The translations under genes and the position numbers were made by a program. The notes under the pieces were generated by a model. The model worked only from the letters and a program-made list of their open reading frames with translations, did not search any database and was not told where the DNA came from. Shown piece after piece: positions 34,075 through 48,089 of a stretch of DNA of 64,000 bases. Source of the stretch: a phage; the sequence record PV357172.2. One strand, 5' to 3'. Position 1 is the first letter of the stretch; the number at the start of each line of letters is the position of its first letter.

Positions 34075-34086
34075 GGAGTAAAAAGA

Positions 34087-34536: not shown

Positions 34537-34605
34537 AAATTTATTTGCTTAAATACTTAAACTTCTGTATAATACTTTCATAAATTAATGAGAGGAAGCG
34601 AAATA

Positions 34606-36127: not shown

Positions 36128-36161
36128 ATTTTATTAACTGTAGCTAAAACAAAGGAAATAT

Positions 36162-37109
36162 ATGTTTAATACTAAAAATATGAAAGAACTGACTTCTGAG
36201 CAGAAAGTAATTCGTACTATTAAACGTTGGGGTATTGGTGCTGTAGTTGGTTTAGCAGGTTTAATCCTAGCTTTTAATTCATATACTGTTGTTCAAGACG
36301 GTACTGTTAAAACCCAGACTTTCCTGGGTAAAGTTGACCCTAGCCCAGTATTACCCGGCTTTCATATTGTAAATCCTTTTGCTTCTTTCGATACTTTTAG
36401 TACTAAAGATATTGCCCTAAAATTAGATAAACTTCAGGTTCCTAGCCAGGATAAGTTTAAATCCACTGTTGACCTGACTGTTATGTTGCAGTTTGATGGT
36501 TCTAAGGCACCAATTAACCGTATTAACGCAGGTACTCAGGATCAGGCGTTAGACAAGTATGTAACTGAAAAATTACTGTCTACTATTCGTGAGTTTGGTA
36601 AGTCTGTACCTAAAGCACAAGATTTGTTTGATGCTAAAATTCAGGCTCAATTGCAAACTGCAATTCAACAGGAAGTTGAAGAGTATGCACGCCCATATGG
36701 TTACACAGTTAAGCAGGTATTCCTTCAGGATATTACTTTGCCACCGGTAATCATGGAACAGGTACAGAATACCAAAGTTCGTGAAGAGCAAGTTAATGCT
36801 GCGAAAGCTGAACTGGCCCGCGTTGAACAAGAAGCGCAGCAAAAGGTTAAACAAGCAGAAGCAGACCGTGAAGCTCGCAACAACCAAGCTATTGCTAATG
36901 AACGTGACGCAGATGCTAAACTGTACGCAGCTAAGAAAGAAGCTGAAGCTAACGCCGCATTGCAACGTACCATTACTCCTGAGATGATTCGCTGGAAGCA
37001 ACTGGAAGTTGAAATGCTTCGTGCTGAAAAATACCAAGGTGGTGTACCGCAAACAGTAGTGGGAACTGGTTACGATGGCCAGATGATCATGGATATGCGT
37101 AATAAGTAA
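36162..37109 (+). CDS. SPFH/band-7 (prohibitin/HflK-like) membrane protein
   Basis: N-terminal TM segment, SPFH-like core, Ala/Glu/Gln-rich coiled-coil tail. Confidence 0.55.
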   Translation: MFNTKNMKELTSEQKVIRTIKRWGIGAVVGLAGLILAFNSYTVVQDGTVKTQTFLGKVDPSPVLPGFHIVNPFASFDTFSTKDIALKLDKLQVPSQDKFKSTVDLTVMLQFDGSKAPINRINAGTQDQALDKYVTEKLLSTIREFGKSVPKAQDLFDAKIQAQLQTAIQQEVEEYARPYGYTVKQVFLQDITLPPVIMEQVQNTKVREEQVNAAKAELARVEQEAQQKVKQAEADREARNNQAIANERDADAKLYAAKKEAEANAALQRTITPEMIRWKQLEVEMLRAEKYQGGVPQTVVGTGYDGQMIMDMRNK

Positions 37110-37145
37110 TATCCGCATGTAATCTCTGAAGTAAGCCCTGTGTTC

Positions 37146-37175
37146 CCTGGAGAGCGCAGGGCTTTTCTGTATTTA
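37146..37175 (+). terminator. rho-independent terminator
   Basis: Hairpin CCCTG-GAGAGCG-CAGGG followed by CTTTTCTGTATTT. Confidence 0.55.
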
Positions 37176-37299
37176 AGGCAAAAGAAAAAGCCCATAAGTT
37201 ATTCAACTAAGGTCTTTAGTATTTAATTCTTTAGAATCATATAATATTATTGCAGCAACAACGTGCTAACCTTAAGTGCCCTGCAATTTTCCTCTAAAA

Positions 37300-37350
37300 A
37301 GTTAAAAAATTCGATTGCTTGAATGCTAAATTCTCTGTATAATATATTTA
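37300..37350 (+). promoter_or_regulatory. sigma70-like strong early promoter
   Basis: TTGCTT at 37315-37320, 17-nt spacer, TGTATAAT ending at 37343. Confidence 0.6.
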
Positions 37351-37373
37351 TAAATTTGAGAGAGGAATCAAAT

Positions 37374-38429
37374 ATGATTAAGACTGGTCTAGTAATTGGT
37401 AAGTTCGCACCATTAACGCGTGGTCATATTAACCTAATAAACACAGCAGCAACTATGTGTGAACGAGTTATTGTTGTAGTTAGTCATGATAATCGTTGGC
37501 TGGATAAGCAGAACACACGTGATCAGGAAGTATTACAGTTAAAGAATCGACTTCGTTGGTTAGAACAAACTTACGCGGATATTGAGCACATTTCGGTAGA
37601 GTACATTATTGAAGATGATATTCCTGAATATCCGAATGGTTGGCCGGAATATGCTAGAATCCTTAATGAAAATTACGGACATTTGCCTGAGATCACCGTT
37701 TTCTCTAGCGAACTAGACTATGATGCAGAATATAAGAAATATCTGCCGAAGTTTGGTCATTATATTGTAGATTCTGATCGGACTCGTGTTCCAATCTCAG
37801 CTACAATGATTCGTAATGATCTTATGAAGTATTGGGAGTTTCTTCCTAGCTTAGTTCGTAAAGATTACGTGCGTAAGGTTGTAATCATTGGGACTGAAAG
37901 CTCGGGAAAGACTACTTTAACAAAATACCTTGCGAAGCTATACAACACTTCGTGGGTAGAAGAATATGGCCGAACGTATTGTGAAGTTGATCTAGTTGGT
38001 AACGAAAATCTACTTACCAGTGAAGATTACAGTAAAATTGCGTTCAGACACAAAGAGCTAGAGTTTGAAGCAGAACGTACTGCAAATAAGATCATGTTTG
38101 TGGATACAAATGCTTTTATTACTGAGTTCTACCACAGACTTTATGAACATAGTAAGAACCCTGTGGTTACAGCAATTGCAAAAGTAGAACATTACGATTT
38201 AGTAATTGTTCTAGCGCCTACTGTCAAGTGGGTAGATGATGATTTACGTATTAACTCCGATCGTTCAATTACTTCTGAACTGTTCGAGCAGATGAAGAAA
38301 GAATTTCCAAATCAGTTCCCTGAAGGGCGTACTGTTTACATCGACTCTCCGGACTACAAAGTTCGTATGGACGAAGCAGTAAACGCAGTAGACTGGCTGA
38401 TTCATCACTTTAACGTTGGAGAGTTTTAA
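37374..38429 (+). CDS. NadR-like bifunctional NMN adenylyltransferase / ribosylnicotinamide kinase
   Basis: N-terminal nucleotidyltransferase motif GKFAPLTRGHINLI; C-terminal P-loop IIGTESSGKTTL. Confidence 0.65.
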   Translation: MIKTGLVIGKFAPLTRGHINLINTAATMCERVIVVVSHDNRWLDKQNTRDQEVLQLKNRLRWLEQTYADIEHISVEYIIEDDIPEYPNGWPEYARILNENYGHLPEITVFSSELDYDAEYKKYLPKFGHYIVDSDRTRVPISATMIRNDLMKYWEFLPSLVRKDYVRKVVIIGTESSGKTTLTKYLAKLYNTSWVEEYGRTYCEVDLVGNENLLTSEDYSKIAFRHKELEFEAERTANKIMFVDTNAFITEFYHRLYEHSKNPVVTAIAKVEHYDLVIVLAPTVKWVDDDLRINSDRSITSELFEQMKKEFPNQFPEGRTVYIDSPDYKVRMDEAVNAVDWLIHHFNVGEF

Positions 38430-38430
38430 T

Positions 38431-39108
38431 ATGACTAACTATCTCGTAAATGACTTTAAAAACTGGAAACCTCTGGAATATCTGTGGCTGCTCATAGCGG
38501 TTGTCTTCATTAGTTTAGCAAACTATAATGGTACAGCTCTAGATTGGGCTACTGCAATAACCAATGTGGTTTGTGTTATTCTGGTTGCAAAAGGACGTGT
38601 TTCCAACTATATTTGGGGCTTAGTGGGTGTTCTTACATATGGTATTACAGCTTTAAACGCAGATCTTTATGGTAACGCTGCACTAAACCTGCTATACTAC
38701 GTTCCTATGCAGTTTTATGGAATGTACTTATGGCATAAAAATAAACCAAGTAATCTGCCAGACGTTCCAACTAAGGTTCTGACTAAAGCTCAGGCTTTAT
38801 TAACTCTTGGGATTCTAGCAGTAGCTACTCTAGGCTATGGCAGCTTCCTCGCTACCACAGCAGATCCGTTCCCAATGCTCGATGCATTTACTGCGGTTGG
38901 TAGTGTAATTGCTATGTGGCTTATGGTCAAGCAGTATGCTGAACAATGGCTAATCTGGATTGCCATTAATATTGGTACTGTATACATTTGGTTTGTAACT
39001 GCTCAGTCTACAGGTGCTTCTTATGCAATCCTAGCAATGTGGCTGGTATTCTTTGGTAACTCTGTACTTGGAGCCTATAAAGGGTACTTTGTACGCGTTA
39101 ACAAATAA
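38431..39108 (+). CDS. PnuC-like nicotinamide riboside transporter
   Basis: Multi-TM protein immediately downstream of NadR-like gene; ATG at 38431 after GGAGAG. Confidence 0.55.
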   Translation: MTNYLVNDFKNWKPLEYLWLLIAVVFISLANYNGTALDWATAITNVVCVILVAKGRVSNYIWGLVGVLTYGITALNADLYGNAALNLLYYVPMQFYGMYLWHKNKPSNLPDVPTKVLTKAQALLTLGILAVATLGYGSFLATTADPFPMLDAFTAVGSVIAMWLMVKQYAEQWLIWIAINIGTVYIWFVTAQSTGASYAILAMWLVFFGNSVLGAYKGYFVRVNK

Positions 39109-39116
39109 AATAGTTA

Positions 39117-39150
39117 TAGCCCTCAAAGCGAGGGCTATTATCCAGAAAAT
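39117..39150 (+). terminator. rho-independent terminator (weak U-tract)
   Basis: Hairpin AGCCCTC-AAAGC-GAGGGCT followed by ATTATCC. Confidence 0.4.
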
Positions 39151-39151
39151 T

Positions 39152-39192
39152 TCACTTGCTAAATGCCGAGATTTTCTGTATAATATATTTAT
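39152..39192 (+). promoter_or_regulatory. sigma70-like promoter driving tRNA transcription
   Basis: TTGCTA at 39156-39161, 17-nt spacer, TGTATAAT ending at 39184; tRNA-Ser begins about 15 nt downstream. Confidence 0.6.
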
Positions 39193-39198
39193 AAATTC

Positions 39199-39290
39199 GG
39201 AAGATTAACCCTAATTGGTAAGGGAGCATCTTGCTAAGTTGCCAGTAGCTGTGGAAACACGGTGTATCGGTTCAAGTCCGATATCTTCCT
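39199..39290 (+). tRNA. tRNA-Ser (anticodon GCT), long variable arm
   Basis: Perfect acceptor GGAAGAT/ATCTTCC, anticodon loop TTGCTAA, variable-arm hairpin, T-arm ATCGG-TTCAAGT-CCGAT, encoded CCA. Confidence 0.7.
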
Positions 39291-39298
39291 CCAAATTT

Positions 39299-39373
39299 GG
39301 TTCTCAAGCTCATTTGGTATGAGCCGTCGCCTCATAAGCGAAAGGTAGGTAGGTTCGAATCCTCCGGGAGCCA
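39299..39373 (+). tRNA. tRNA with CAT anticodon (Met or Ile2)
   Basis: Acceptor GGTTCTC/GGGAGCC with G-U pairs, D-stem GCTC/GAGC, anticodon loop CTCATAA, T-loop TTCGAAT, encoded CCA. Confidence 0.65.
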
Positions 39374-39393
39374 CCAGATAACTAGGAGACTTT

Positions 39394-39582
39394 ATGTCAC
39401 GCTTTCACGAAATTAAGCAAGAACTGGAAGAACTCGCCTGTCCTGAATGCTTTGGGACAGGTGAATGGAATGATGCTGAACCCGGGGATACGCGGTTTAA
39501 CACTTACGTTTGCACTCACTGTGAAGGTACTGGTGTAAACCCTCTTTACACTATTTCTCTTTTTGTAGGGGTTGCTAAATAA
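39394..39582 (+). CDS. small zinc-ribbon protein (62 aa)
   Basis: CPECFGTGEW...CTHCEGTG DnaJ-like Cys motifs. Confidence 0.45.
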   Translation: MSRFHEIKQELEELACPECFGTGEWNDAEPGDTRFNTYVCTHCEGTGVNPLYTISLFVGVAK

Positions 39583-39588
39583 TGCACT

Positions 39589-39936
39589 TTGAAGATGATG
39601 AAAAAAGAAGCGTTCTACACTGTCCCAGCAATTAATCTGCTCGGTACTGTACTATTTCAGATTAAGTTCTACCTGCGAGACGACTACACTGAAGTGGTAA
39701 ACGCTATTGTACCTGAGTTCTTCGTAAATAATTTCCAAAAGGACTTTAAGTTCTTTATTGATGATGTTTACGATGGTGTGGTTGATCCGGCAGTAGCTCC
39801 AGCTATATACAATGTATTTAATTCTCTGCCAGATCTAGATTTTGATCTAGGACTTATTGAGTCTGGTGAGATTATCTGGGCACTTAATGTTCCAGTGACT
39901 GGATTCCCTGGTTGGCTGCAAGGTTACGAACTCTAA
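39589..39936 (+). CDS. hypothetical protein (115 aa)
   Basis: ORF track. Confidence 0.45.
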   Translation: MKMMKKEAFYTVPAINLLGTVLFQIKFYLRDDYTEVVNAIVPEFFVNNFQKDFKFFIDDVYDGVVDPAVAPAIYNVFNSLPDLDFDLGLIESGEIIWALNVPVTGFPGWLQGYEL

Positions 39937-39944
39937 CAAAATTT

Positions 39945-40027
39945 GGATCTGTGGTGGAATTGGCAATACACACCATGCTTAAAACGTGGCGCTTAAATGA
40001 TTGAGGGTTCGAGCCCCTCCAGATCCA
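39945..40027 (+). tRNA. tRNA-Leu (anticodon TAA), long variable arm
   Basis: Perfect acceptor GGATCTG/CAGATCC, anticodon arm CCATG-CTTAAAA-CGTGG, T-arm GAGGG-TTCGAGC-CCCTC, encoded CCA. Confidence 0.7.
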
Positions 40028-40182
40028 CCAAATTAAGGAAGTAAAAATGAAATCTATTAAGAAAGCACTGCGTAAATTTATGTATTGTCGTTTTCATAGC
40101 ATCAAGGCTTCAACTAATGGTACTACTTACGATCGCTATGATCCTAAGTTTGGCTTACATTCTAAATAACTGGAGAAAACAA

Positions 40183-40389
40183 ATGGCTAATCCTGAAATT
40201 ACGGCACAACGCTTTATGCTGAAAGGAATTATTGCTGAAGCAGGCATGACAGAAGAAGTTGCAGATTTTCAAAAGCAATTCCTCAATATTCTCACTCAAG
40301 CCAAAGAGCTAGGAGAGAAAGAACATGGCGCGGCTATTATGGCAATCACATTGGTTGGGCTTGATCTGGCTGAAGAATCAGGAGTTTAA
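40183..40389 (+). CDS. hypothetical protein (about 68 aa)
   Basis: ATG at 40183 after GGAGAAAACAA; track ORF starts upstream. Confidence 0.45.
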   Translation: MANPEITAQRFMLKGIIAEAGMTEEVADFQKQFLNILTQAKELGEKEHGAAIMAITLVGLDLAEESGV

Positions 40390-40478
40390 CTCCTCCAAGC
40401 AGAAATTTTAAAAATGTACTTGCTTTTTACTTAAGATTTCTGCTATAATAGTTATATAAGTTGATGAGAGGAATCAGA

Positions 40479-40754
40479 ATGTTAAAACGTTTTGCAGCAA
40501 CTGGTATTGAAAGCTCAGTATGTAAATCCTGGGGTGGTTGGGAAGGTGAGATCGAGTGGCTTTATTTCTACAATGTAGAACTTCTTCCAGAGATCAAAGC
40601 TCAATGTATTGAGGCTGGTATGGCTCCTGATGCTACGGCTGATGTTGAAATCAGCATGAATAAGCTAGAGGGTCGAGTAGTCACTGTTACTGATGAAGGT
40701 GAAGAGGTATTCGAACTTCCATTCACTTTGAAAGTCACTCCTTCATTTGATTAA
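40479..40754 (+). CDS. hypothetical protein (about 91 aa)
   Basis: ATG at 40479 after promoter module and GAGAGG. Confidence 0.5.
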   Translation: MLKRFAATGIESSVCKSWGGWEGEIEWLYFYNVELLPEIKAQCIEAGMAPDATADVEISMNKLEGRVVTVTDEGEEVFELPFTLKVTPSFD

Positions 40755-40882
40755 CTGATACAGCACTGAGCAAGTTCTTTAAAATTTGACTTGCTCAGTA
40801 CCTTAAAACTTGGTATAATAGTTATCTAATTTGGAAACATATTTAAAAGTATTCAAATACTAGTTTAAACACTTTTAAATGT

Positions 40883-40966
40883 ACATCGTTGGCAGAATGG
40901 CTATTGTAGCGGTCTGTAAATCCGTGCCCTTCGGGATTGGTGGTTCGAATCTTACACGGCCCGCCA
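40883..40966 (+). tRNA. tRNA-Tyr-like element (GTA anticodon loop), possibly degenerate
   Basis: D-arm and anticodon arm (loop CTGTAAA) fold, variable-arm hairpin GCCC-TTC-GGG, TTCGAAT T-loop, CCA present; T-stem and acceptor pair poorly in my reading. Confidence 0.3.
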
Positions 40967-41068
40967 AATTCTGTGTAGAGTTAAGTAAACCGGTAGCCAA
41001 CCAGCTATCATTGCTGACATCGAATTCAGCCACAGATACCATTTTCATTAATAACTGAGGAAATAGAT

Positions 41069-41254
41069 ATGACAACTCGTGCAATTGCTCGACTAGAAGC
41101 TGATCGTGATAATCTGATTAATAATATTAAGGTTCGTGGTAATATTATTAAGGCTCTGAAAGCTGAACTTCTTGAAGAACTTCAAGGTCAAGTAGAGCGT
41201 CGTGAAGCTCTAAAAGAGGTTGAGGAAGCTATCGAAAAACTCAAAGCTGAGTAA
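41069..41254 (+). CDS. small coiled-coil protein (61 aa)
   Basis: ORF track; GAGGAAATAGAT RBS. Confidence 0.45.
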   Translation: MTTRAIARLEADRDNLINNIKVRGNIIKALKAELLEELQGQVERREALKEVEEAIEKLKAE

Positions 41255-41257
41255 ATT

Positions 41258-41839
41258 ATGCACGGAATATCCTTACCAATTCCAGGGTTTGAGGAGTACT
41301 TAGTAAGTTTGGATGGGTTAGTATTTAGTATCAAATCAAACAAAATACTAACCCCAATAACCAGTAATTACGGATACTTATCTATACGTCTCCATAAAAA
41401 TGGTCAACAGAGAAATACCGGTGTACATAGGATTTTAGCATGTGCATTTAAGAAATTACCAAGTCTAGACTCTGAACTAGAAGTTGACCATATTAACACA
41501 GACATTACTTATTGGGGTCTTAATAACTTACAAGTGCTCACAAAAGAGCAGCATCTAGAAAAGACTTTAAAAGATAAAGGATTTAGTAAACTAAACCATG
41601 ATAATTGTTGTAAGGATTGTGGTAAAGCTATTTCTTTAAAAGCTGAAAAATGTCAGGAGTGCTCTTCACATAAACCAAAAGATATCTCTATAACTAAAGA
41701 AATAATCGAGGTTACAGTAAGAGAGCTAGGCTGGTCAGGTGCAGGGAGAAAGTTAAGTTATTCAGATAATGGGTTGCGTAAAAGATACACTTCTTTAGGA
41801 GGCAATCCTAAAGAACTTAAAAAGTTAAAGGTACTATAG
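41258..41839 (+). CDS. HNH endonuclease with zinc finger and C-terminal HTH
   Basis: HNH region ELEVDHINTDITYWGLNNLQVLTKEQH; CKDCG...CQEC zinc finger; paralog of 43929-44513. Confidence 0.65.
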   Translation: MHGISLPIPGFEEYLVSLDGLVFSIKSNKILTPITSNYGYLSIRLHKNGQQRNTGVHRILACAFKKLPSLDSELEVDHINTDITYWGLNNLQVLTKEQHLEKTLKDKGFSKLNHDNCCKDCGKAISLKAEKCQECSSHKPKDISITKEIIEVTVRELGWSGAGRKLSYSDNGLRKRYTSLGGNPKELKKLKVL

Positions 41840-41901
41840 TCTAACGGTTAGGATACTCCCCTGTCACGGGAGAGGTAGGGTTTCGATTACCCTTAGTACC
41901 G
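41830..41901 (+). tRNA. tRNA-Asp (anticodon GTC)
   Basis: Perfect acceptor GGTACTA/TAGTACC, anticodon arm CTCCC-CTGTCAC-GGGAG, T-arm AGGGT-TTCGATT-ACCCT, CCA; 5' end overlaps HNH stop codon. Confidence 0.7.
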
Positions 41902-41910
41902 CCAAATTAT

Positions 41911-41984
41911 ACATCCATAGCTCAATTGGTTAGAGCTACCGCCTCTTAAGCGGTAGGTTCTAGGTTCAAGTCCTAGTGGGTGTA
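41911..41984 (+). tRNA. tRNA-Lys (anticodon CTT)
   Basis: Acceptor ACATCCA/TGGGTGT, D-stem GCTC/GAGC, anticodon arm ACCGC-CTCTTAA-GCGGT, T-arm CTAGG-TTCAAGT-CCTAG, CCA. Confidence 0.7.
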
Positions 41985-41987
41985 CCA

Positions 41988-42200
41988 AACATCAGAGCAG
42001 CGTGATGTACTGCAAAGACCCAAAGTCCGGGGTGGACTTCTTGATTCAAAGGAGCAGGCACTAATTATCATTCTAGCGTGGTGGAGAGGGGACACCAGCT
42101 TGCCGAGGGTAGAAGCTCGTTCGATTCGAGTGAAAGAATGGTTCTCGTAAATCCGCACAAGTGATAGCAGGTTCAAGTCCTGCCTAGATTGACTTATTAT
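41988..42200 (+). ncRNA. structured noncoding segment with two orphan T-arm-like hairpins (pseudo-tRNAs or small RNA)
   Basis: GCTCG-TTCGATT-CGAGT and GCAGG-TTCAAGT-CCTGC T-arm-like elements with no pairing acceptor stems found; no credible ORF. Confidence 0.3.
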
Positions 42201-42271
42201 GCGTTCGTAGTTAAAAGGTATAATTTTTGGTTGCCAACCAGAAGTTGAGGGTTCGATTCCCTCCGACCGCA
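42201..42271 (+). tRNA. tRNA-Gly (anticodon GCC)
   Basis: Acceptor GCGTTCG/CGACCGC (one mismatch), anticodon arm TTTGG-TTGCCAA-CCAGA, T-arm GAGGG-TTCGATT-CCCTC, CCA. Confidence 0.65.
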
Positions 42272-42587
42272 CCAAATTTAGGTTTCTGCTTCCTAGAGAA
42301 CGGACTCCTAGATAAACAAGGCGATGAGTTTCCGGCCGGTTCTAGTCGCTGAAAATCCTCCCGACCAGGTAGGTGTAAGTAAATGAAAGTTTACTTATTG
42401 AGTAGGTTCCGATAGACCGGCGGGTCTATTCTGGCATTTAAGAGAGGTCTCGCAAACTTCTTTGTCAGCCGTGGGGTTGGTAGCCTCCAGGTGGCCTACA
42501 CAATAAGTAAATTTATTAAAAATTCATTTGCTATTCTGCTTAATTCTCTGTATAATATATTTTATAAAGTGAGTTAACAAAAATTAA

Positions 42588-42660
42588 CAGTGCGTAGCGC
42601 AGTTGGTAGCGTGGGAGCCTTGGGTGCTTCGGGTCGCAGGTTCGAGTCCTGCCGCACTGA
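42588..42660 (+). tRNA. tRNA-Pro (anticodon TGG)
   Basis: Perfect acceptor CAGTGCG/CGCACTG, anticodon arm GGAGC-CTTGGGT-GCTTC, T-arm GCAGG-TTCGAGT-CCTGC, CCA; directly after promoter module. Confidence 0.7.
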
Positions 42661-42669
42661 CCAAACAAT

Positions 42670-42744
42670 TGCGGGTTAGATCTCTGGTAGAGATCGCTAG
42701 TCTCATAAGCTAGAAAGAGGTAGGTTCGATTCCTGCACCCGCTT
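42670..42744 (+). tRNA. tRNA with CAT anticodon (Met/fMet or Ile2)
   Basis: Anticodon loop CTCATAA, T-arm GTAGG-TTCGATT-CCTGC, CCA; position 1-72 appears unpaired (U-U) in my fold. Confidence 0.6.
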
Positions 42745-42767
42745 CCATTTTAATAGAGGATTTCGAA

Positions 42768-42931
42768 ATGAAAGTATTTCGATTAGTAGTAAGTGACAAA
42801 CGGTTAGGTAAGAATACATCAAAATCCTTACTTGCTCATTATGGTAAAAATTGGGATGAAGTAATGGCAGAGTTTAATACTAATCACCCTTACTTGAAAG
42901 TTCACTCTATTAAGGAAGTTTATGCTTATTA
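42768..42931 (+). CDS. small protein (about 54 aa)
   Basis: Below track threshold; ATG at 42768 after AGAGGA; overlaps start of next gene. Confidence 0.35.
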
Positions 42932-43395
42932 ACAGGGTGCTTCAAGCTCTAGATCTTCCAGAGCTCTTTACTATTACCGACCCCTTAATACATCGGTATA
43001 TGGAAAAGTATAATGAAATCTCTGGTAAAAAAGGGAAACTAAAATCCTCAGAATTTAAGTTCTGTTATAGAATGGCAGCATTAAACCTCTTAAAGTACAA
43101 GAGGGAGCATAAAATCCCTATAACAGAAGGATTTGTCTATGTAATAGGTAGTCCAGCATGGCCTGGACTATATAAGATAGGTATGACAGTAGATGTGAAT
43201 GAAAGACTGTCTAGTTATCAAACATATTCGCCTTATCGTGATTACAAGTTATACCATTTCAGATTCTCCTCGGACAAGAGAAGAACTGAAAAAGCATTAC
43301 ATAACCTTCTGAAGGACTACAAAGTATCAGGAGAATGGTTTGAAGTACCTCTGTTAGACGCCTTCAAACTATTAGTAGAAAATTTGGATTGCTAA
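42922..43395 (+). CDS. T5orf172/GIY-YIG-like domain protein
   Basis: Motif GFVYVIGSPAWPGLYKIGMT...R...E; AAGGAAG RBS. Confidence 0.5.
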   Translation: MLINRVLQALDLPELFTITDPLIHRYMEKYNEISGKKGKLKSSEFKFCYRMAALNLLKYKREHKIPITEGFVYVIGSPAWPGLYKIGMTVDVNERLSSYQTYSPYRDYKLYHFRFSSDKRRTEKALHNLLKDYKVSGEWFEVPLLDAFKLLVENLDC

Positions 43396-43460
43396 CTCAA
43401 CTGGATAAGAGTACCGGACCTTTAATCCGTCAGTTCTGGGTTCGAATCCCAGGCAATCCA
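43386..43460 (+). tRNA. tRNA-Lys (anticodon TTT)
   Basis: Perfect acceptor GGATTGC/GCAATCC, anticodon loop CCTTTAA, T-arm CTGGG-TTCGAAT-CCCAG, CCA; 5' end overlaps last codons of upstream CDS. Confidence 0.65.
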
Positions 43461-43748
43461 CCAATTTCAAGAAAAACTCAGTTGCTTGATGCTTAATTTC
43501 TTGTTATAATATTTATATAAATTGATGAGGAGAAATCCTCATCATAGTTCACTAAGGTATTAGCTCGACCTAGGACTGGCTGCCAAAAAGCACGATCCCT
43601 ACGATTTGGGAGAAGTTCTAGATTAGTCCACTAGATTCAGCGGCAACTGAATAGTGTATCGGTTTTGCGAGATGACGCGGTTCCTTCCGCTCGAAGCGAA
43701 GGTGCTGTAGTTACGCCGAGCTAATAGCCTTAGTAAACTAAGGAATTT

Positions 43749-43819
43749 GGGGATATAGTTTAATGGTAGAACATCTGCTTTGCACGCAGAAGACGAGGGT
43801 TCAACTCCCTCTTTCTCCA
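43749..43819 (+). tRNA. tRNA-Ala (anticodon TGC)
   Basis: Acceptor GGGGATA/TTTCTCC (one mismatch), anticodon arm TCTGC-TTTGCAC-GCAGA, T-arm GAGGG-TTCAACT-CCCTC, CCA. Confidence 0.65.
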
Positions 43820-43827
43820 CCAAATTT

Positions 43828-43909
43828 GGGGCTATGCTGGAACTGGTAGACAATACGGCCTTAGATTCCGTAGCTTAAATGCGTGGGAGTTCGAGTCTCC
43901 CTAGCCCCA
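43828..43909 (+). tRNA. tRNA-Leu (anticodon TAG), long variable arm
   Basis: Perfect acceptor GGGGCTA/TAGCCCC, anticodon loop CTTAGAT, T-arm GGGAG-TTCGAGT-CTCCC, CCA. Confidence 0.65.
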
Positions 43910-43928
43910 CCAACTTATAGGGTAATGT

Positions 43929-44513
43929 ATGCAGTTTGTACCAATAAAAGATGCACCAGGGTATTTAGTAAATGAAACAGGGGATGTGTTATCTACATTT
44001 ACTAATAAAATCTTATCAAGATATATAGTTGATGGGTACCCTGCTGTAAAATTACAGATAAATGGTAAGCAAACTTCGGTACTTATACACCGAATTATTT
44101 CTCATGTATTTGGGGACTTATATAATCTATTTGACCCTGAATTAGAAGTAGATCACAAGGATAGAGATAGGCTGAATCTATCTAAAGATAATCTTCAAGT
44201 TTTATCAAAAATAGAACATCAGAAGAAAACTAATAAAGATAATGGATGGTCTGATAGTAGAGTACCTTGCCCCTTATGTGGAAATCTAATGCTTCAGAGA
44301 TCAGTAACATGTACAAATTGTAAGCCAAAACCTACAGGAAAGTTAATAAAACCAGAATTGTCCTTAGAAGACATAACTGAAAAGGTTTTATTAATGGGGT
44401 GGGTTAAGGCAGCTAAAGATCTAGAAGTATCAGAGTCCACTTTACGTAGACGATATACTAAACTAACCGGATTAAGCCCGAAAGTATTAACAGAACAACG
44501 GAAAAGCAAATAG
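43929..44513 (+). CDS. HNH endonuclease with zinc finger and C-terminal HTH
   Basis: HNH region ELEVDHKDRDRLNLSKDNLQVL; CPLCG...CTNC zinc finger; paralog of 41258-41839. Confidence 0.65.
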   Translation: MQFVPIKDAPGYLVNETGDVLSTFTNKILSRYIVDGYPAVKLQINGKQTSVLIHRIISHVFGDLYNLFDPELEVDHKDRDRLNLSKDNLQVLSKIEHQKKTNKDNGWSDSRVPCPLCGNLMLQRSVTCTNCKPKPTGKLIKPELSLEDITEKVLLMGWVKAAKDLEVSESTLRRRYTKLTGLSPKVLTEQRKSK

Positions 44514-44590
44514 ACTGGTGACTAAACCCGATTGGAAATCGGTTGAGTGGTAGCAATACCGCCTTATGGGTTCAACTCCCATCTTTTCCG
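44500..44590 (+). tRNA. tRNA-Ser (anticodon GGA), long variable arm
   Basis: Perfect acceptor GGAAAAG/CTTTTCC, anticodon loop TTGGAAA, T-arm ATGGG-TTCAACT-CCCAT, CCA; 5' end lies inside last codons of HNH gene. Confidence 0.6.
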
Positions 44591-44605
44591 CCAAACAATT
44601 TATAT

Positions 44606-44697
44606 GGTAGGTCAATCCAATGGCTGGCGCTGGACTCCGACTTGAAATCGGTTGATCGTAGTGATACGGTGTAAGGGTTCGATCCCCTTACCTACCT
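44606..44697 (+). tRNA. tRNA-Ser (anticodon TGA), long variable arm
   Basis: Perfect acceptor GGTAGGT/ACCTACC, anticodon loop CTTGAAA, T-arm AAGGG-TTCGATC-CCCTT, CCA. Confidence 0.65.
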
Positions 44698-44955
44698 CCA
44701 AATCTTGAAGTATGCCGGAATCGGTAGACGGGGCTGCCTAAAAGGTTTATAGGGAACATCCACTCCCTGCAACATACCTCATAAAGCGGCTGAGATAAAT
44801 GGTCTATCTCGTGAAGGTTCAAGTCCTTCTGCTTCTTGATACATCTATGGCTCAAAGTGTAACGGTGCTATTTGATGCTCTTGGTAAGACTTCCCCGACA
44901 TGCGTTCGGGAGTAAGCTGCTAAGACTAGAGTAGAAGAGTTTCTGAGAGCCGCCA

Positions 44956-45070
44956 CAATTGAAAATTCGTACTCGTCTTGAGCTGCGTGCAATAGGAGAT
45001 AACTTGATTAGTATTCTAGAACATGCTAATTGAGGATGGTTTCGCTAACCCTGCGAGTTTTCAATTGTGG
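44956..45070. repeat. 14-bp perfect inverted repeat GCCACAATTGAAAA / TTTTCAATTGTGGC separated by about 88 nt
   Basis: Read directly; distal arm overlaps the 5' acceptor of tRNA-His. Confidence 0.5.
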
Positions 45071-45140
45071 CTATATCATAATTGGTTAATGATCCTGATT
45101 GTGAATCAGGCCTATGTGGATTCGAATTCCACTAGCCACC
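45067..45140 (+). tRNA. tRNA-His (anticodon GTG)
   Basis: Perfect acceptor GTGGCTA/TAGCCAC, anticodon arm CCTGA-TTGTGAA-TCAGG, T-arm GTGGA-TTCGAAT-TCCAC, C discriminator, CCA. Confidence 0.65.
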
Positions 45141-45168
45141 CCAAATTAACTTAAATAGGAAATAAAAT

Positions 45169-45369
45169 ATGGCTGATTTCTGCAAGCAATGCTCCCTTGA
45201 TATGTGGGGCAGAGATACTGGTGACTTATCTGGTCTGATTACAGAAGCCGAAGTCAAAGAAGGTTATAGTGCAGTTGTGATTTGTGAAGGCTGCGGTGTT
45301 ATCCGTGTAGACCACACCGGTAAGCGTTTGGAAGAACCAGTTCCAATTGCGCAAGTTCCTGTAGAATAA
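45169..45369 (+). CDS. hypothetical protein (66 aa)
   Basis: ORF track; Cys pairs CKQC...CEGC suggest a zinc ribbon. Confidence 0.45.
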   Translation: MADFCKQCSLDMWGRDTGDLSGLITEAEVKEGYSAVVICEGCGVIRVDHTGKRLEEPVPIAQVPVE

Positions 45370-45377
45370 AAAATTAT

Positions 45378-45450
45378 TGGAGTGTAGCTCAACTGGCAGA
45401 GCGACGGTTTCTGACACCGTAGGTTTCTAGTTCGATCCTAGACATTCCAG
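45378..45450 (+). tRNA. tRNA-Gln (anticodon CTG)
   Basis: Acceptor TGGAGTG/CATTCCA, D-stem GCTC/GAGC, anticodon arm ACGGT-TTCTGAC-ACCGT, T-arm TCTAG-TTCGATC-CTAGA, CCA. Confidence 0.65.
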
Positions 45451-45459
45451 CCAAACAAT

Positions 45460-45534
45460 TGGGGATTAGCTTAGCTTGGCCTAAAGCTTCGGCCTTTGAA
45501 GTCGAGATCATTGGTTCAAATCCAATATCCCCTG
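45460..45534 (+). tRNA. tRNA-Gln (anticodon TTG)
   Basis: Anticodon arm TCGGC-CTTTGAA-GTCGA, T-arm ATTGG-TTCAAAT-CCAAT, CCA; first acceptor pair mismatched in my fold. Confidence 0.6.
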
Positions 45535-45545
45535 CCAAACAATAA

Positions 45546-45618
45546 GCGATTAAGCACACGGGTTGTGCCGCAGGCCTTCCAAGCCCCGCTGAGTAGGGTT
45601 CGATTCCCTCTAGCCGCT
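45546..45618 (+). tRNA. tRNA, anticodon uncertain (possibly TCC, Gly)
   Basis: T-arm with TTCGATT loop, acceptor with one mismatch, CCA; anticodon stem weak in my fold. Confidence 0.4.
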
Positions 45619-45638
45619 CCAACTTTAAGGAAACATTT

Positions 45639-45860
45639 ATGCACGTTTTTGAGTTTCGTGATAAAAGTAACAATAAACGAGTTATTGTTATTGGAGAAAC
45701 ATACCTAGCATACGAACAAACTGATGGCTCTGTTATCTTGAATGATGAGAAAGCAAATTTTAGCTTTTATCCAGAAGAACCTTATGAAGAGTTTCGTACT
45801 AAGTTTCTTTTACCAGACTGGCTAGCAGTAGCCGAGCAACGAGAATCCGAAGATGGCTGA
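45639..45860 (+). CDS. hypothetical protein (73 aa)
   Basis: ORF track; AAGGAAACATTT RBS. Confidence 0.45.
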   Translation: MHVFEFRDKSNNKRVIVIGETYLAYEQTDGSVILNDEKANFSFYPEEPYEEFRTKFLLPDWLAVAEQRESEDG

Positions 45861-46014
45861 TAACCTAAAATTAAGGGTTGACAAACAAAAGAAATACGTT
45901 GAGGTTGAATTAGGCGAAGAACGCTTAAAGCTAACTTTCGAGTTTCTTCAGCAGTTGGCTATGACAGTCATGACTGATAAGTCTCCTGTTATTGAAAAAG
46001 AAATCCCGTTGAAA
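45853..46014 (+). CDS. small protein (about 53 aa)
   Basis: Below track threshold; ATG overlaps upstream stop (ATGGCTGA). Confidence 0.35.
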
Positions 46015-46025
46015 TAGGAAGCAAC

Positions 46026-46418
46026 ATGGAGTTTACTTGTTTAAATTGCGGAATCACAAAACCTAAAAGTAGGGGTTCCGCAGGTAAGTATTGTGGTGCT
46101 GCTTGTCAGCAGGAGTACCAGACAAAGCAAAAAGTATTAAAGTGGCTGGCAGGTGAAGAACCTGGTTATACTGGTAAAGCTGCACAATTAAAACCTTTTG
46201 TTAGGAAGTGGCTGTGGGATACTCGTGGTACTGCTTGTGAAGTATGTGGTTGGGATGGGAAACATCCAATTGACGGAGCAGTTTTAACTGAGGTAGATCA
46301 TATAGATGGAGATGCAACTAACTGTTCTCCAGAAAATCTAAAGATTCTCTGCCCTAACTGTCACTCTATGACACCTACGCATAGGGCCAGAAATAGAGTT
46401 TCAACAAGACAACGATAG
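46026..46418 (+). CDS. small HNH endonuclease (130 aa)
   Basis: HNH/zinc motifs TEVDHIDGDATNCSPENLKILCPNCH. Confidence 0.6.
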   Translation: MEFTCLNCGITKPKSRGSAGKYCGAACQQEYQTKQKVLKWLAGEEPGYTGKAAQLKPFVRKWLWDTRGTACEVCGWDGKHPIDGAVLTEVDHIDGDATNCSPENLKILCPNCHSMTPTHRARNRVSTRQR

Positions 46419-46489
46419 CTCTTAAAGCATTGCTGGCGATGCAACGGTCTTGTAAACCGTGGAACCGGGTTCGATTCCTGGTGGGAGCA
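46418..46489 (+). tRNA. tRNA-Thr (anticodon TGT)
   Basis: Acceptor GCTCTTA/TGGGAGC, D-stem GCAT/ATGC, anticodon arm ACGGT-CTTGTAA-ACCGT, T-arm CCGGG-TTCGATT-CCTGG, CCA; first base is last base of HNH stop codon. Confidence 0.7.
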
Positions 46490-46567
46490 CCAAAATTAAA
46501 AAATTCATTTGCCTTCTCTCTTATTTCTTGTTATAATATTTATATAAATTAATGAGAGGGAAACCAA

Positions 46568-46861
46568 ATGAAACGTTATCTTTCTGTCGTGTTCCAAACT
46601 GGTGGTCAACGCTACACTTATGAATTTCCTGAGTCCTGGAAAATTAAAGAAGGTGATCAAGTTGTTGTATTAACACCTCGTGAAGGCTTCAAAGTAGTAA
46701 CGGTTAAACAAGTATTTCCAAAAGATCACGAACCATCTAAGGCTATTCAGTACAAGATGATTCATGGTCTGGTACGAAAAGTACCTAGAACAGAAGTCGA
46801 AGTAGATAAAACTGGGGAAGCTAAATACCAGTATACCTCTTACTTAGATGAAATGATGTAA
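46568..46861 (+). CDS. hypothetical protein (97 aa)
   Basis: ORF track; promoter module and GAGAGGGAAACC RBS upstream. Confidence 0.5.
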   Translation: MKRYLSVVFQTGGQRYTYEFPESWKIKEGDQVVVLTPREGFKVVTVKQVFPKDHEPSKAIQYKMIHGLVRKVPRTEVEVDKTGEAKYQYTSYLDEMM

Positions 46862-46862
46862 T

Positions 46863-46935
46863 GCTCTGATAGTTCAACAGGTTAGAACAGACGACCGATA
46901 ATCGTCAAATCTTGGTTCGATCCCAAGTCGGAGTA
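46863..46935 (+). tRNA. tRNA-Ile (anticodon GAT)
   Basis: Acceptor GCTCTGA/TCGGAGT, D-stem GTTC/GAAC, anticodon arm GACGA-CCGATAA-TCGTC, T-arm CTTGG-TTCGATC-CCAAG, CCA. Confidence 0.7.
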
Positions 46936-46944
46936 CCAAATTAT

Positions 46945-47017
46945 AGTTAGTTGGCAGAGTGGTTATGCACCTCCTTCATACGGAGCGACTACAGTGGTTC
47001 AAATCCACTACTAACTA
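46945..47017 (+). tRNA. tRNA with CAT anticodon (Met or Ile2)
   Basis: Perfect acceptor AGTTAGT/ACTAACT, anticodon loop TTCATAC, T-arm AGTGG-TTCAAAT-CCACT, CCA. Confidence 0.6.
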
Positions 47018-47023
47018 CCAAAC

Positions 47024-47062
47024 AGAGGATCTGGTCATTGTACCAGATCTCTGTGTTTATTA
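47024..47062 (+). terminator. rho-independent terminator closing the tRNA cluster
   Basis: Hairpin GATCTGGT-CATTGT-ACCAGATC followed by TCTGTGTTTATT. Confidence 0.55.
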
Positions 47063-47203
47063 AACTGAATGGGACTATCAATCCACAAGCCGGACTACGA
47101 GCGATTATCGGGTATTCACTTAATAAACAGCCTGCCCCCCAGTTTTTATCTTGCTTCTGGGTTAACAAAAAGCTGAGCCAAATTCTAATATCAGGGAGAT
47201 CTA

Positions 47204-47572
47204 ATGAAAGCATATCAAAATCTTAAATCCGGCGTAATTAACCTTGTTCATGAAAATCAGATCATTCAGCTATACTCTAAAGACGGTGAACTTAAACAGA
47301 AAGTTCTAGTTGAAGATCTAGAAGGTATCACACCTCACTTTGACCCTGAAGCCTTTCGCATTGTAGATGTGGAAGTGGTTCCCCAAGTCGAGGGTGGTCA
47401 GCACCTAAATGTCAATGTGTTAAGCCGTGATCAGCTTTTAGATGCACAGAAACATCCTGAAAAATATCCTCAGTTGACCATCCGTGTCTCTGGCTATGCT
47501 GTTCGATTTAACGCATTGACGCGTGAACAACAGAACGACGTTATTAGTCGTACATTTACTCAGGCGATATAA
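47204..47572 (+). CDS. autonomous glycyl radical cofactor (GrcA/YfiD-like)
   Basis: C-terminal glycyl radical signature [29 protein letters not shown]; size 122 aa. Confidence 0.65.
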
Positions 47573-47653
47573 TGGGGTTTGGATACGATTTCTCCCAGCT
47601 ACGCAAGGTAGTCGAGCAAACTCCGTTTATCTCCCAAGTTTTAGGAGAAATGT

Positions 47654-47968
47654 GTGGATCGAGCATTAAGACGCCATCACCGGCAACGTGTGAAGAACAA
47701 CCGCAAGAAGTATTGGACAGTCTTTCCACATGAAGAAAGCCCTAAGCGATTAGGTATTATCACTACTACTCCTTGCATCTGTTCTTGCTGGATGTGTGGG
47801 AACCCTCGCAAATATTATAAGAATAGTAAAGCAGGTATGAAAACCTCGGAGATCAGGAAAATGGGAGCAATGATTATGGGCATCTCAAATGATGAATTTG
47901 ATGGCTTTGTAGGATTCGGAGAAGGAACTAGCTCAGGCTGTTTCGAATATGAACTCCCCGATCTGTGA
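47654..47968 (+). CDS. Cys-rich hypothetical protein (104 aa)
   Basis: ORF track (GTG start); my reading differs from the track by 2 nt here, so boundaries follow the track. Confidence 0.4.
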   Translation: MDRALRRHHRQRVKNNRKKYWTVFPHEESPKRLGIITTTPCICSCWMCGNPRKYYKNSKAGMKTSEIRKMGAMIMGISNDEFDGFVGFGEGTSSGCFEYELPDL

Positions 47969-48089
47969 TTAACAACAAACCCCAGCTATGGAATAAGTAG
48001 TCTGGGGTTTTTCTATATACAGGTAAATAATTTATGTATAATAAAATTCACCCACATTAGGTTAATTCAAAAGACTTAATGGAGGTAAT

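What the first reader, a model, noticed from the sequence alone, without database searches (positions are those of the whole stretch)
42275..42525. ORF-free GC-richer segment with hairpins between tRNA-Gly and the next promoter
About 250 nt downstream of tRNA-Gly contains several hairpins (for example GACCGGCGGGTC and GGTAGCCTCCAGGTGGCCTAC) and no ORF. It could be a 3' trailer or processing structure, a small RNA, or a terminator.
Basis: seen in the sequence. Interest (0 to 1): 0.4.

Follow-up and report, generated by a model that had tools for sequence, protein, structure and literature searches.

The report
Phage T5 RNAIV gene plus spacer
The right half of this segment is this T5-like phage's copy of RNAIV, a small stable RNA long annotated in phage T5 whose function is still unknown. 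The left half is an unannotated, hairpin-rich spacer behind tRNA-Gly, so the finding is real but mostly already known.

Summary
The window comes from a T5-like phage (Demerecviridae, Tequintavirus), and the finding lies in its tRNA cluster.

**Observation.** It holds: the segment has no ORF, is GC-richer than the window (44.6% vs 38.8%), and folds better than shuffles on the + strand (z = -2.6).

**RNAIV.** Positions 42400-42502 are the ortholog (~95% identical) of T5, BF23 and phage 5 'rnaIV', annotated as a 103-nt 'stable RNA with unknown functions'. It is followed by the promoter P13a ortholog (42528-42556).
- 28 homologs support a four-way-junction fold: 99.4% of cells paired, and 11 pairs with changes on both sides against 1.8 in shuffles.
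- The fold is enclosed by a 13-bp flanking stem and carries an invariant 7-nt loop, CUCGCAA.
- It is in no Rfam family and is not a tRNA.
- It was found only in Markadamsvirinae.

**Spacer.** Positions 42275-42386 are absent from T5, present in about 45% of RNAIV-bearing phage records, and unannotated even in the expert records. The spacer folds into four hairpins. One of them competes with the flanking stem of RNAIV. Evidence that the spacer has a function is weak.

**Not supported.** There is no terminator.

**Function.** It remains unknown. RNAIV is dispensable in the laboratory.

The parts
42201..42274 (+). tRNA-Gly(GCC) with encoded CCA (context; upstream neighbour of the finding)
   Evidence: ARAGORN; Rfam tRNA model, 61.1 bits
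42275..42386 (+). Structured spacer (trailer of tRNA-Gly). Absent from T5, present in 185 phage records, and unannotated in the BF23 and phage 5 expert records
42276..42313 (+). Spacer hairpin H1, beginning 1 nt after the tRNA CCA end. Other phages carry unrelated sequences here that also fold as a hairpin at the same place
   Evidence: MFE folds of 15 variants. Changes on both sides within families, e.g. AUUUAGG/CCUAGAU versus AUUUAGA/UCUGAAU
42311..42361 (+). Conserved core of the spacer, the only part shared by all spacer variants. It contains hairpin H2 (42320-42350): stem GGCGAU/GUCGCU with a loop carrying the palindrome CCGGCCGG
   Evidence: blastn of variants and alignments. The stem never varies, so there is no covariation for or against it
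42357..42373 (+). Spacer hairpin H3 (CCU.CC...GG.AGG), replaced by other hairpins in other phages
   Evidence: 2 pairs with changes on both sides
42375..42398 (+). Hairpin H4, GUAAGUAAAU-GAAA-GUUUACUUAU. Its 3' arm is the 5' strand of P0, so H4 and P0 exclude each other. Its 5' arm repeats TAAGTAAAT found at 42505-42513
   Evidence: P0 state -78.4, H4 state -71.6 kcal/mol; H4 is the MFE until the 3' strand of P0 has been transcribed
42387..42399 (+). P0 5' strand (AAGUUUACUUAUU), the precursor-only flank of RNAIV
   Evidence: RNAalifold and pair counts: 13 pairs, almost invariant; inverted repeat I6
42400..42502 (+). Mature RNAIV ortholog (103 nt), ends transferred from the T5 and BF23 annotation. 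P1 42402-42410/42490-42499; P2 42411-42430 (loop GGCG); P3 42431-42435/42464-42468; P4 42441-42463 with the invariant loop CUCGCAA at 42449-42455; P5 42473-42487
   Evidence: ~95% identity to T5 rnaIV. Annotations. Structure and covariation. Covariance model hit of 150.7 bits on + versus 29.6 on -
42503..42514 (+). P0 3' strand (AAUAAGUAAAUU)
42528..42556 (+). Sigma-70-type early promoter (TTGCTA, 17 nt, TATAAT), ortholog of T5 promoter P13a. It drives tRNA-Pro and tRNA-fMet
   Evidence: consensus scan, 10 of 12 matches; aligned to the annotated T5 P13a region

Best explanation
The segment is the tail of an early, + strand, polycistronic tRNA transcription unit of a T5-like phage. It holds two modules.

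(1) 42387-42515 encodes the precursor of RNAIV, the same gene annotated in T5, BF23 and phage 5 as a 103-nt 'stable RNA with unknown functions'.
- Shown here: the RNA folds into a compact four-way junction (P1; P2; P3 plus P4; P5). Its stems covary, while the P2 loop (GGCG) and the 7-nt P4 loop (CUCGCAA) stay fixed.
- Shown here: the junction is enclosed by a 13-bp A/U-rich stem, P0, formed by the two flanks. The annotated mature ends (42400 and 42502) fall at the variable 2x2 internal loop between P0 and P1.
- Inferred: host RNases cut the long P0/P1 helix at that loop. I put RNase III as most likely (about 0.45) and RNase P plus 3' trimming as the alternative (about 0.3).
- Inferred: the released cloverleaf-shaped RNA is stable because its ends are buried in P1. 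It acts through its invariant loops on a protein or RNA partner. My best guess is a tRNA-shaped ligand or decoy (about 0.2-0.25). It is not a decoding tRNA.

(2) 42275-42386 is a modular spacer that follows whichever tRNA or tRNA-like gene lies upstream.
- Seen in the predicted folds: four hairpins, H1 to H4. H4 sequesters the 5' strand of P0 until the 3' strand has been made.
- Inferred: the spacer is precursor material that guides or delays processing, rather than a separate effector RNA.
For: Identity.
- The window is 99.4% identical to Salmonella phage MET_P1_179_112 and matches 589 T5-like records.
- 42386-42525 matches T5 at 95.7% under 'rnaIV | promoter'.
- T5, BF23 and phage 5 records all annotate a 103-nt RNAIV at the aligned positions, followed by promoter P13a (alignments).

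Structure.
- RNAalifold on 28 sequences gives 49 pairs, 11 of them with compensatory changes.
- Pair counts: 99.4% of cells paired; 11 pairs and 22 cells with changes on both sides, against 1.8 and 1.9 in 500 shuffles (0 of 500 reach the observed value); slid controls give 0-3 pairs.
- Every helix except P0 has at least one change on both sides.

Strand.
- z = -2.6 on + versus -1.0 on -.
- The covariance model scores 150.7 bits on + versus 29.6 on -.
- Many G-U pairs are valid only on the + strand.

Non-coding.
- No ORF, and 1-2-nt indels occur among homologs.

Mature ends at the P0/P1 loop.
- Columns 14/115 and 15/114 are the most variable and are often mismatched.

Spacer.
- Present in 185 of about 407 records.
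- Same four-hairpin fold in all short variants.
- H1 and H3 show changes on both sides (7 pairs versus 3.5 in shuffles; 3 of 500 shuffles reach the observed value).

Long terminal stems also close the RNAIII and RNA2H homologs in this window.
Against: - No expression data could be examined. The mature ends and the stability rest on the GenBank annotations of T5, BF23 and phage 5, not on data I saw.
- The compensatory changes come from a handful of lineages (Eps7/1-29, smaug, Eos/EH5-type, GSW6/JLBYU43-type), so the number of independent events is small.
- P0, H2 and H4 never vary, so they have no covariation support.
- The annotated ends leave a 1-nt 3' overhang, not the 2-nt overhang typical of RNase III.
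- A T5 strain lacking 30661-38625, which includes rnaIV at 32838-32940, is viable (PMC11464382). Any function is therefore accessory.
- The spacer's high conservation may reflect recent recombinational spread rather than selection. Eps7 has a 99% identical spacer but only a 75% identical RNAIV.
- T5 processes RNAIV without any spacer.
Confidence: 0.8

Rival explanations
1. RNAIV is a decayed tRNA gene (pseudo-tRNA) carried along in the tRNA cluster, with no function of its own. The fold is an inherited cloverleaf.
For: The topology is cloverleaf-like: a terminal stem, three arms, a 7-nt U-N-R loop on the long arm, and a 4-nt linker where a tRNA has its variable loop. With filters off, the RNAIV covariance model aligns at 25.7 bits to tRNA-His plus its complementary flanks in Aeromonas phage TS3. 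T5 annotators call the neighbouring RNA1, RNA2 and RNA3 'tRNA-like'.
Against: A relic would not keep pairing through 11 compensated positions while holding two loops invariant. No tRNA model hit appears even at E <= 10, and ARAGORN makes no call. The arms are far from tRNA dimensions: P2 has 8 bp plus a tetraloop, and P3 plus P4 has 13 bp. No CCA is encoded, although the phage's tRNA genes examined here (Asp, Lys, Gly) do encode it.
Confidence: 0.12
2. The whole 250 nt is only a 3' trailer or processing spacer of the tRNA precursor and yields no stable product.
For: It lies between a tRNA and the next promoter. The spacer half has no annotation in any expert record. T5 lacks the spacer altogether.
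Against: Three independently annotated genomes list RNAIV as a stable RNA. Covariation with invariant loops points to selection on the RNA itself. For the spacer half alone this reading remains likely (about 0.5).
Confidence: 0.1
3. The spacer (42275-42386), together with tRNA-Gly, is a recombination or homing cassette. Its conservation reflects recent horizontal spread among T5-like phages, and its hairpins and the TAAGTAAAT repeat are junction scars rather than functional RNA structure.
For: Mosaic pattern: in Eps7, RNA2, tRNA-Gly and the spacer are 99-100% identical to the window but RNAIV is 75% identical. The distance between the RNA2 T-arm motif and P0 varies from 14 to 365 nt among phages, with replaced H1 and H3 segments. 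In phage EH5 an HNH-type ORF replaces tRNA-Gly right up to ACCAAAUC. The cluster is rich in homing endonuclease genes. The core has no covariation.
Against: The 48-nt core is retained in every variant, although both of its flanks have been swapped several times. The swapped flanks still form hairpins at the same positions.
Confidence: 0.3
4. The structure acts as an intrinsic terminator that ends the upstream transcription unit before promoter P13a.
For: It lies immediately upstream of a promoter. A large stem (P0/P1) is followed by an A/U-rich stretch, AAAUUUAUUAAAAAUU.
Against: The terminator scan finds nothing in 42275-42525. P0 is A/U-rich and closes a 100-nt multibranch loop. There is no uninterrupted U-tract. 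The T5 and BF23 records annotate terminators elsewhere but none here.
Confidence: 0.05

Closest known systems
RNAIV (rnaIV) of phages T5 (NC_005859, T5s05), BF23 (NC_042564) and Salmonella phage 5 (AJ604531)
   Same: Orthologous. It is about 94-96% identical over 129 nt, has the same 103-nt aligned ends, sits upstream of promoter P13a/tRNA-Pro/tRNA-fMet and downstream of RNA2, and lies on the same strand as the tRNAs.
   Different: In T5, RNAIV follows RNA2 after 18 nt. Here, as in BF23, tRNA-Gly(GCC) plus a 112-nt spacer lie between them. A few base changes occur in P1 and P2 (G-C at the first P1 position where T5 has A.C). The databases give no structure or function; the fold and covariation were derived here.
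Phage T4 species 1 and species 2 stable RNAs (rnaC, rnaD) in the T4 tRNA cluster
   Same: They are small stable RNAs of 139 and 119 nt, encoded next to phage tRNA genes on the same strand. From general knowledge of T4, not tested here: they are made from the same precursors as the tRNAs and their function remains unknown.
   Different: No detectable homology: the RNAIV covariance model gives no match over rnaC or rnaD even with filters off. The phage family differs (Straboviridae).
tRNA
   Same: Four-way junction with a terminal stem, a 1-nt 3' overhang at the annotated end, U at position -1, and a 7-nt loop with U at position 2 and A at positions 6-7.
   Different: Fails the tRNA models. The arms have the wrong lengths, the D-loop and T-loop signatures are missing or inconsistent, no CCA is encoded, and it is 103 nt long.
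RNase III processing stems (rRNA precursor stems, T7 early-mRNA sites such as R1.1); comparison from general knowledge
   Same: About 22 bp of coaxial duplex (P0 plus P1) formed by the two flanks of a structured RNA. It is interrupted by a small internal loop exactly where the mature ends lie.
   Different: Cleavage by RNase III is untested. The annotated ends give a 1-nt rather than a 2-nt 3' overhang.
Other T5 stable RNAs in this window (RNAIII and RNA2H homologs)
   Same: They are also closed by long terminal inverted repeats: 44952-44969/45054-45071 (18 nt) and 43558-43572/43712-43726 (15 nt). They lie in the same cluster and also have unknown function.
   Different: No sequence or covariance-model similarity to RNAIV: the model hits only 42387-42515 in the window.

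Membership tests
T5-type RNAIV (annotated stable RNA of Tequintavirus) | Sequence homology to T5 rnaIV over its full length | tested here: met
   95.7% identity to NC_005859 under the rnaIV feature. 96.1% over 129 nt. Alignments A1 and A2.
T5-type RNAIV (annotated stable RNA of Tequintavirus) | Conserved position: + strand of the tRNA cluster, downstream of RNA2, immediately upstream of promoter P13a and tRNA-Pro/tRNA-fMet | tested here: met
   Order in the window is RNA2 (42071-42195), tRNA-Gly, spacer, RNAIV, promoter 42528-42556, tRNA-Pro 42588, tRNA-Met 42670. BF23 has the same order.
T5-type RNAIV (annotated stable RNA of Tequintavirus) | Accumulates as a discrete stable RNA of about 103 nt in infected cells | not testable with these tools
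   Known only from the feature notes of NC_005859, NC_042564 and AJ604531. No primary paper was found in the library.
T5-type RNAIV (annotated stable RNA of Tequintavirus) | Shared secondary structure maintained by compensatory changes | tested here: met
   49 pairs, 99.4% paired, 11 pairs with changes on both sides versus 1.8 in shuffles.
tRNA (Rfam RF00005 / ARAGORN) | Scores above threshold with tRNA covariance or heuristic models | tested here: not met
   No tRNA hit in 42275-42525 at E <= 10. No ARAGORN tRNA or tmRNA there.
tRNA (Rfam RF00005 / ARAGORN) | Canonical arm sizes, D-loop GG and T-loop UUCRA signatures, and a 3' CCA | tested here: not met
   P2 is 8 bp plus the GGCG loop. P3 plus P4 is 13 bp. 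The P5 loop is UUGGUAG, UUGAUAG, CUUGAAC or UUUGAAG. The sequence after the 3' end is AUAAGU, not CCA.
Intrinsic (rho-independent) terminator | Short GC-rich hairpin directly followed by a T-run | tested here: not met
   No site in 42275-42525. The two sites in 41800-42800 lie elsewhere.
Any curated RNA family (Rfam 15) | Match to a family model | tested here: not met
   Permissive scans of the window (35000-48000 and 41985-42530) and of six related loci give only tRNAs and noise.
RNase III processing site | Cleavage by RNase III within a duplex of about 20 bp or more | not testable with these tools
   The duplex geometry is present (P0 13 bp, 2x2 loop, P1 9 bp). Cleavage itself needs rnc mutant data.
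T4 rnaC/rnaD stable RNAs | Sequence or structure homology | tested here: not met
   Covariance model R1 with filters off gives no match over L106:1909-2172.

The most novel reading that the evidence does not exclude
RNAIV is a tRNA-shaped decoy or ligand that presents its invariant anticodon-like loop (CUCGCAA) to a host factor, for example a tRNA-targeting defence nuclease or a tRNA-processing or modifying enzyme. That would make it an RNA-based counter-defence element of the T5 'anti-defence island'. In spacer-bearing phages its release would be gated by the H4/P0 alternative pairing.
Probability: 0.12. Interest if true: 0.65.

Novelty: already known. Interest (0 to 1): 0.3.

Why it matters
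RNAIV is one of several stable RNAs of T5-like phages that carry only the label 'stable RNA with unknown functions' in the T5, BF23 and phage 5 records. They sit in a region now recognised as an anti-defence island whose tRNAs neutralise PARIS and retron Eco7. This work adds a covariation-supported fold with two invariant loops. That gives precise targets for mutagenesis (42449-42455 and 42419-42422) and a covariance model that could seed an Rfam family and correct the spurious 'hypothetical protein' calls over this locus. The spacer and its H4/P0 competition are unannotated, but the evidence that they matter is thin.

Tried and rejected
1. Known RNA family. Rfam scans found nothing for either half, in the window or in six related loci.
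2. Spacer as a decayed duplicate of RNAIV. Three short blocks lie in the same order, but local and global alignments are no better than dinucleotide shuffles (p = 0.13-0.65). Only the 9-nt TAAGTAAAT repeat is shared.
3. Spacer core elsewhere. The pattern AAGGCGAT..TTCCGGCCG gave 52 IMG/VR loci, but all the new ones are GC-rich coding DNA, that is, chance matches. There is no paralog in the window, T5, BF23 or phiR2-01.
4. First pattern scan. CCGTGGGGTTGGTAGCC returned three unrelated GC-rich contigs, L010, L012 and L019.
5. Distant RNAIV homologs. No covariance-model match was found in the searched region (tRNA cluster or NadR-gene neighbourhood) of Aeromonas TS3, Klebsiella FZ41, Proteus phage 1, Vibrio 11895-B1 or T4. 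The metagenome scan returned only close T5-like contigs.
6. Host mimicry by sequence. There is no blastn match in 5,426 E. coli genomes at E <= 1.
7. Recurrent processing motif. The P0 and H4 sequences do not recur elsewhere in the window above chance.
8. Coding potential. No plausible ORF exists on either strand.
9. Literature. No paper on T5 RNAIV could be found in the held library.

Full report
**Context**

The window carries 19 tRNA genes on the + strand between 36 and 47 kb. The 1-kb stretch around the finding is 99.4% identical to Salmonella phage MET_P1_179_112 and matches 589 T5-like phage records. The window is therefore the early tRNA region of a Tequintavirus (Demerecviridae, Markadamsvirinae).

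**Observation check**

- tRNA-Gly(GCC) ends at 42274 and tRNA-Pro starts at 42588.
- A sigma-70-type site, TTGCTA-17-TATAAT, lies at 42528-42556.
- No ORF of 42 aa or more lies in 42275-42525 on either strand.
- GC is 44.6%, against 38.8% for the window.
- The + strand folds to -78.4 kcal/mol, z = -2.60 against shuffles. The - strand gives z = -1.04.

GGTAGCCTCCAGGTGGCCTAC (42479-42499) is not the conserved pairing (see below).

**What the 3' half is**

A blastn search of the segment hits 407 phage records. In the T5 reference NC_005859 the match lies under 'rnaIV: RNAIV | promoter'. Three records annotate a 103-nt 'RNAIV, stable RNA with unknown functions': T5, the BF23 tRNA-region record NC_042564 and the phage 5 record AJ604531. 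In each it is followed by promoter P13a and then tRNA-Pro and tRNA-fMet. By alignment, the mature RNA corresponds to window 42400-42502. BF23 has exactly the order seen here: RNA2, tRNA-Gly(GCC), an unannotated gap, RNAIV. No Rfam family matches RNAIV, even in permissive scans.

**Structure of RNAIV**

I aligned 28 homologs with their flanks (A2). They include divergent versions from Eps7 and phage 1-29 (75% identical), smaug, Eos, EH5, GSW6 and JLBYU43.

RNAalifold returns the following:
- **P0:** a 13-bp flanking stem, 42387-42399 with 42502-42514. The annotated 3'-terminal A (42502) is its innermost pair, with U42399.
- **Internal loop:** a variable 2x2 loop, columns 14-15 and 114-115. The annotated 5' end (42400) is its first residue. 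The annotated 3' end (42502, column 116) is the adjacent, innermost P0 pair.
- **P1:** 9 bp.
- **P2:** 8 bp with a GGCG loop.
- **P3:** 5 bp, then a 5-nt bulge.
- **P4:** 8 bp with the invariant loop CUCGCAA (42449-42455).
- **P5:** a variable hairpin.

Pair counts support the fold:
- 99.4% of cells form standard pairs.
- 11 pairs and 22 cells have changes on both sides, against 1.8 and 1.9 in 500 shuffles (0 of 500 shuffles reach the observed values).
- Controls with the 3' partner slid by 1-3 columns give 0-3 such pairs.
- P1, P2, P3, P4 and P5 each show changes on both sides. P0 is almost invariant, so it is neither supported nor contradicted.

The changes come from a few lineages, so the number of independent events is modest.

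G-U pairs and the covariance-model scores (150.7 bits on +, 29.6 on -) fix the strand.

This is confirmed by a G-C to A-U exchange at columns 19/110.

**Is it a tRNA?**

The topology is cloverleaf-like, and the P4 loop has U at position 2 and A at positions 6-7. However:
- tRNA models do not match at E <= 10, and ARAGORN makes no call.
- The arm sizes are wrong.
- The P5 loop is not a consistent T-loop.
- No CCA is encoded.

With filters off, the RNAIV model aligns weakly (25.7 bits) to tRNA-His plus complementary flanks in Aeromonas phage TS3. That is a match of shape, not of sequence. I therefore describe RNAIV as tRNA-shaped, not as a tRNA.

**Distribution**

- The model finds RNAIV in Yersinia phage phiR2-01 (140 bits) and in all close T5-like contigs.
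- It finds no RNAIV in the searched regions of Aeromonas TS3 (Shenzhenvirus), Klebsiella FZ41 (Sugarlandvirus), Proteus phage 1 (Novosibvirus), Vibrio 11895-B1 or T4. For the first three and T4 the searched region was the tRNA cluster. For Vibrio 11895-B1 it was the NadR-gene neighbourhood, where no tRNA genes are annotated.
- T4's analogous stable RNAs rnaC and rnaD are not homologous.
- E. coli genomes hold nothing similar.

**The 5' half (42275-42386)**

T5 lacks this part: RNA2 is followed by RNAIV after 18 nt. The spacer occurs in 185 records.

It is modular. After the CCA of whichever tRNA or tRNA-like gene lies upstream come, in order:
- **AAAU.**
- **H1 (42276-42313):** a hairpin whose sequence differs between phage groups.
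- **Core (42311-42361):** a 48-nt core shared by all variants, containing hairpin H2 with stem GGCGAU/GUCGCU and a loop carrying CCGGCCGG.
- **H3 (42357-42373):** a second replaceable hairpin.
- **H4 (42375-42398):** GUAAGUAAAU-GAAA-GUUUACUUAU.

All short variants fold in this way. H1 and H3 show some changes on both sides (7 pairs versus 3.5 in shuffles; 3 of 500 shuffles reach the observed value). H2 and H4 never vary.

The 3' arm of H4 is the 5' strand of P0, so the two structures exclude each other:
- The full transcript prefers P0 (-78.4 versus -71.6 kcal/mol).
- H4 is the best fold until the 3' strand of P0 has been transcribed.

Other tests on the spacer gave negative results:
- It is not significantly similar to RNAIV.
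- It has no paralog.
- Its core does not occur outside T5-like phages.

Its conservation may owe much to recombination. Eps7 shares a 99% identical spacer but only a 75% identical RNAIV. In EH5 an HNH-type ORF has replaced tRNA-Gly up to the spacer.

**Mechanism**

Shown:
- gene identity;
- the fold;
- the invariant loops;
- the mature ends at the P0/P1 loop, by transfer of annotation;
- no terminator.

Inferred:
- co-transcription with tRNA-Asp, tRNA-Lys, RNA2 and tRNA-Gly;
- excision by cleavage in the roughly 22-bp P0/P1 duplex (RNase III about 0.45; RNase P plus trimming about 0.3);
- stability due to the closed four-way junction, a design shared with the RNAIII and RNA2H homologs, which also have long terminal stems;
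- action through the fixed loops.

Function is unknown. A T5 strain deleted for 30661-38625, which removes rnaIV, is viable (PMC11464382). The region is an 'anti-defence island' in which tRNA-Tyr, tRNA-Lys and the Rad protein counter retrons and PARIS. That makes a decoy or counter-defence role conceivable but untested.

**Verdict**

This is a real, structured, non-coding locus. Its main component is already annotated in the T5 reference, so novelty is low. What is new here is:
- a covariation-supported fold, absent from Rfam;
- the delimitation of an unannotated modular spacer;
- the H4/P0 competition.

Interest is 0.3.

Noticed in passing
window 42071-42195: Homolog (89-100% identical in related phages) of T5 'RNA2, tRNA-like stable RNA with unknown functions'. 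It has a clear T-arm (GGTTCAAGTCCTGCC), yet neither ARAGORN nor the Rfam tRNA model calls it.
   Followed up: partly
window 41988-42070: An 83-nt GC-rich segment (about 50% GC) between tRNA-Lys(CUU) and RNA2. It contains hairpin-forming stretches (GCAGCGTGATGTACTGC, AGTCCGGGGTGGACT). It is conserved in Eps7 and JLBYU43 but differs in T5, and no annotation was found.
   Followed up: no
window 44952-45071 and 43558-43726: Long inverted repeats (18 nt at 94% and 15 nt at 87% complementarity) enclose the homologs of T5 RNAIII and RNA2H, as P0/P1 encloses RNAIV. The 3' arm of the RNAIII stem overlaps the first bases of tRNA-His.
   Followed up: partly
window 35479-35550, 44606-44696, 45545-45618: Rfam tRNA and tRNA-Sec models give sub-threshold or unlisted hits (35.5, 37.6 and 23.3 bits) where ARAGORN reports nothing. 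44606-44696 sits where T5 has tRNA-Ser(UGA), next to tRNA-Ser(GGA).
   Followed up: no
L092 11221-11324 (Aeromonas phage vB_AdhS_TS3): tRNA-His is flanked by about 14 nt of mutually complementary sequence (AAAGCGUUUUCUGG ... CCAGAGAACGUUUU). This P0-like stem around a genuine tRNA lies in a distant T5-like phage.
   Followed up: no
L024 ~749-856, L026 ~746-862, L033 (smaug, 1-29 and a related IMG/VR genome): The 'long' spacer variants carry an extra insert of about 110-120 nt between the conserved core and P0. It folds strongly (-59 to -61 kcal/mol for the whole spacer). It contains a stem, GCUAGAG/CUCUAG, whose loop (AUUGCC) is complementary to a downstream GGCAAU, a possible pseudoknot. No Rfam match.
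   Followed up: no
L027 (Eps7) versus window 42071-42515: Sharp mosaic boundary: RNA2, tRNA-Gly and the spacer are 99-100% identical to the window, but RNAIV, which starts right after, is only 75% identical. Recombination breakpoints therefore fall at module borders near 42386.
   Followed up: partly
L022 293-667 (phage EH5); window 41258-41839, 42922-43395, 43929-44513: Homing-endonuclease-type ORFs (HNH; GIY-YIG-like in the JLBYU43 annotation) are interleaved with the tRNA and stable-RNA genes. In EH5 one replaces tRNA-Gly exactly up to the ACCAAAUC that precedes the spacer.
   Followed up: no
public records seen: Several records with T5-like sequence carry unexpected host labels (Campylobacter, Listeria phage LM 4-11-1 of 2,746 bp, Klebsiella phage 150049). 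Several genomes annotate a 'hypothetical protein' over the RNAIV locus. These are likely labelling or annotation errors.
   Followed up: no
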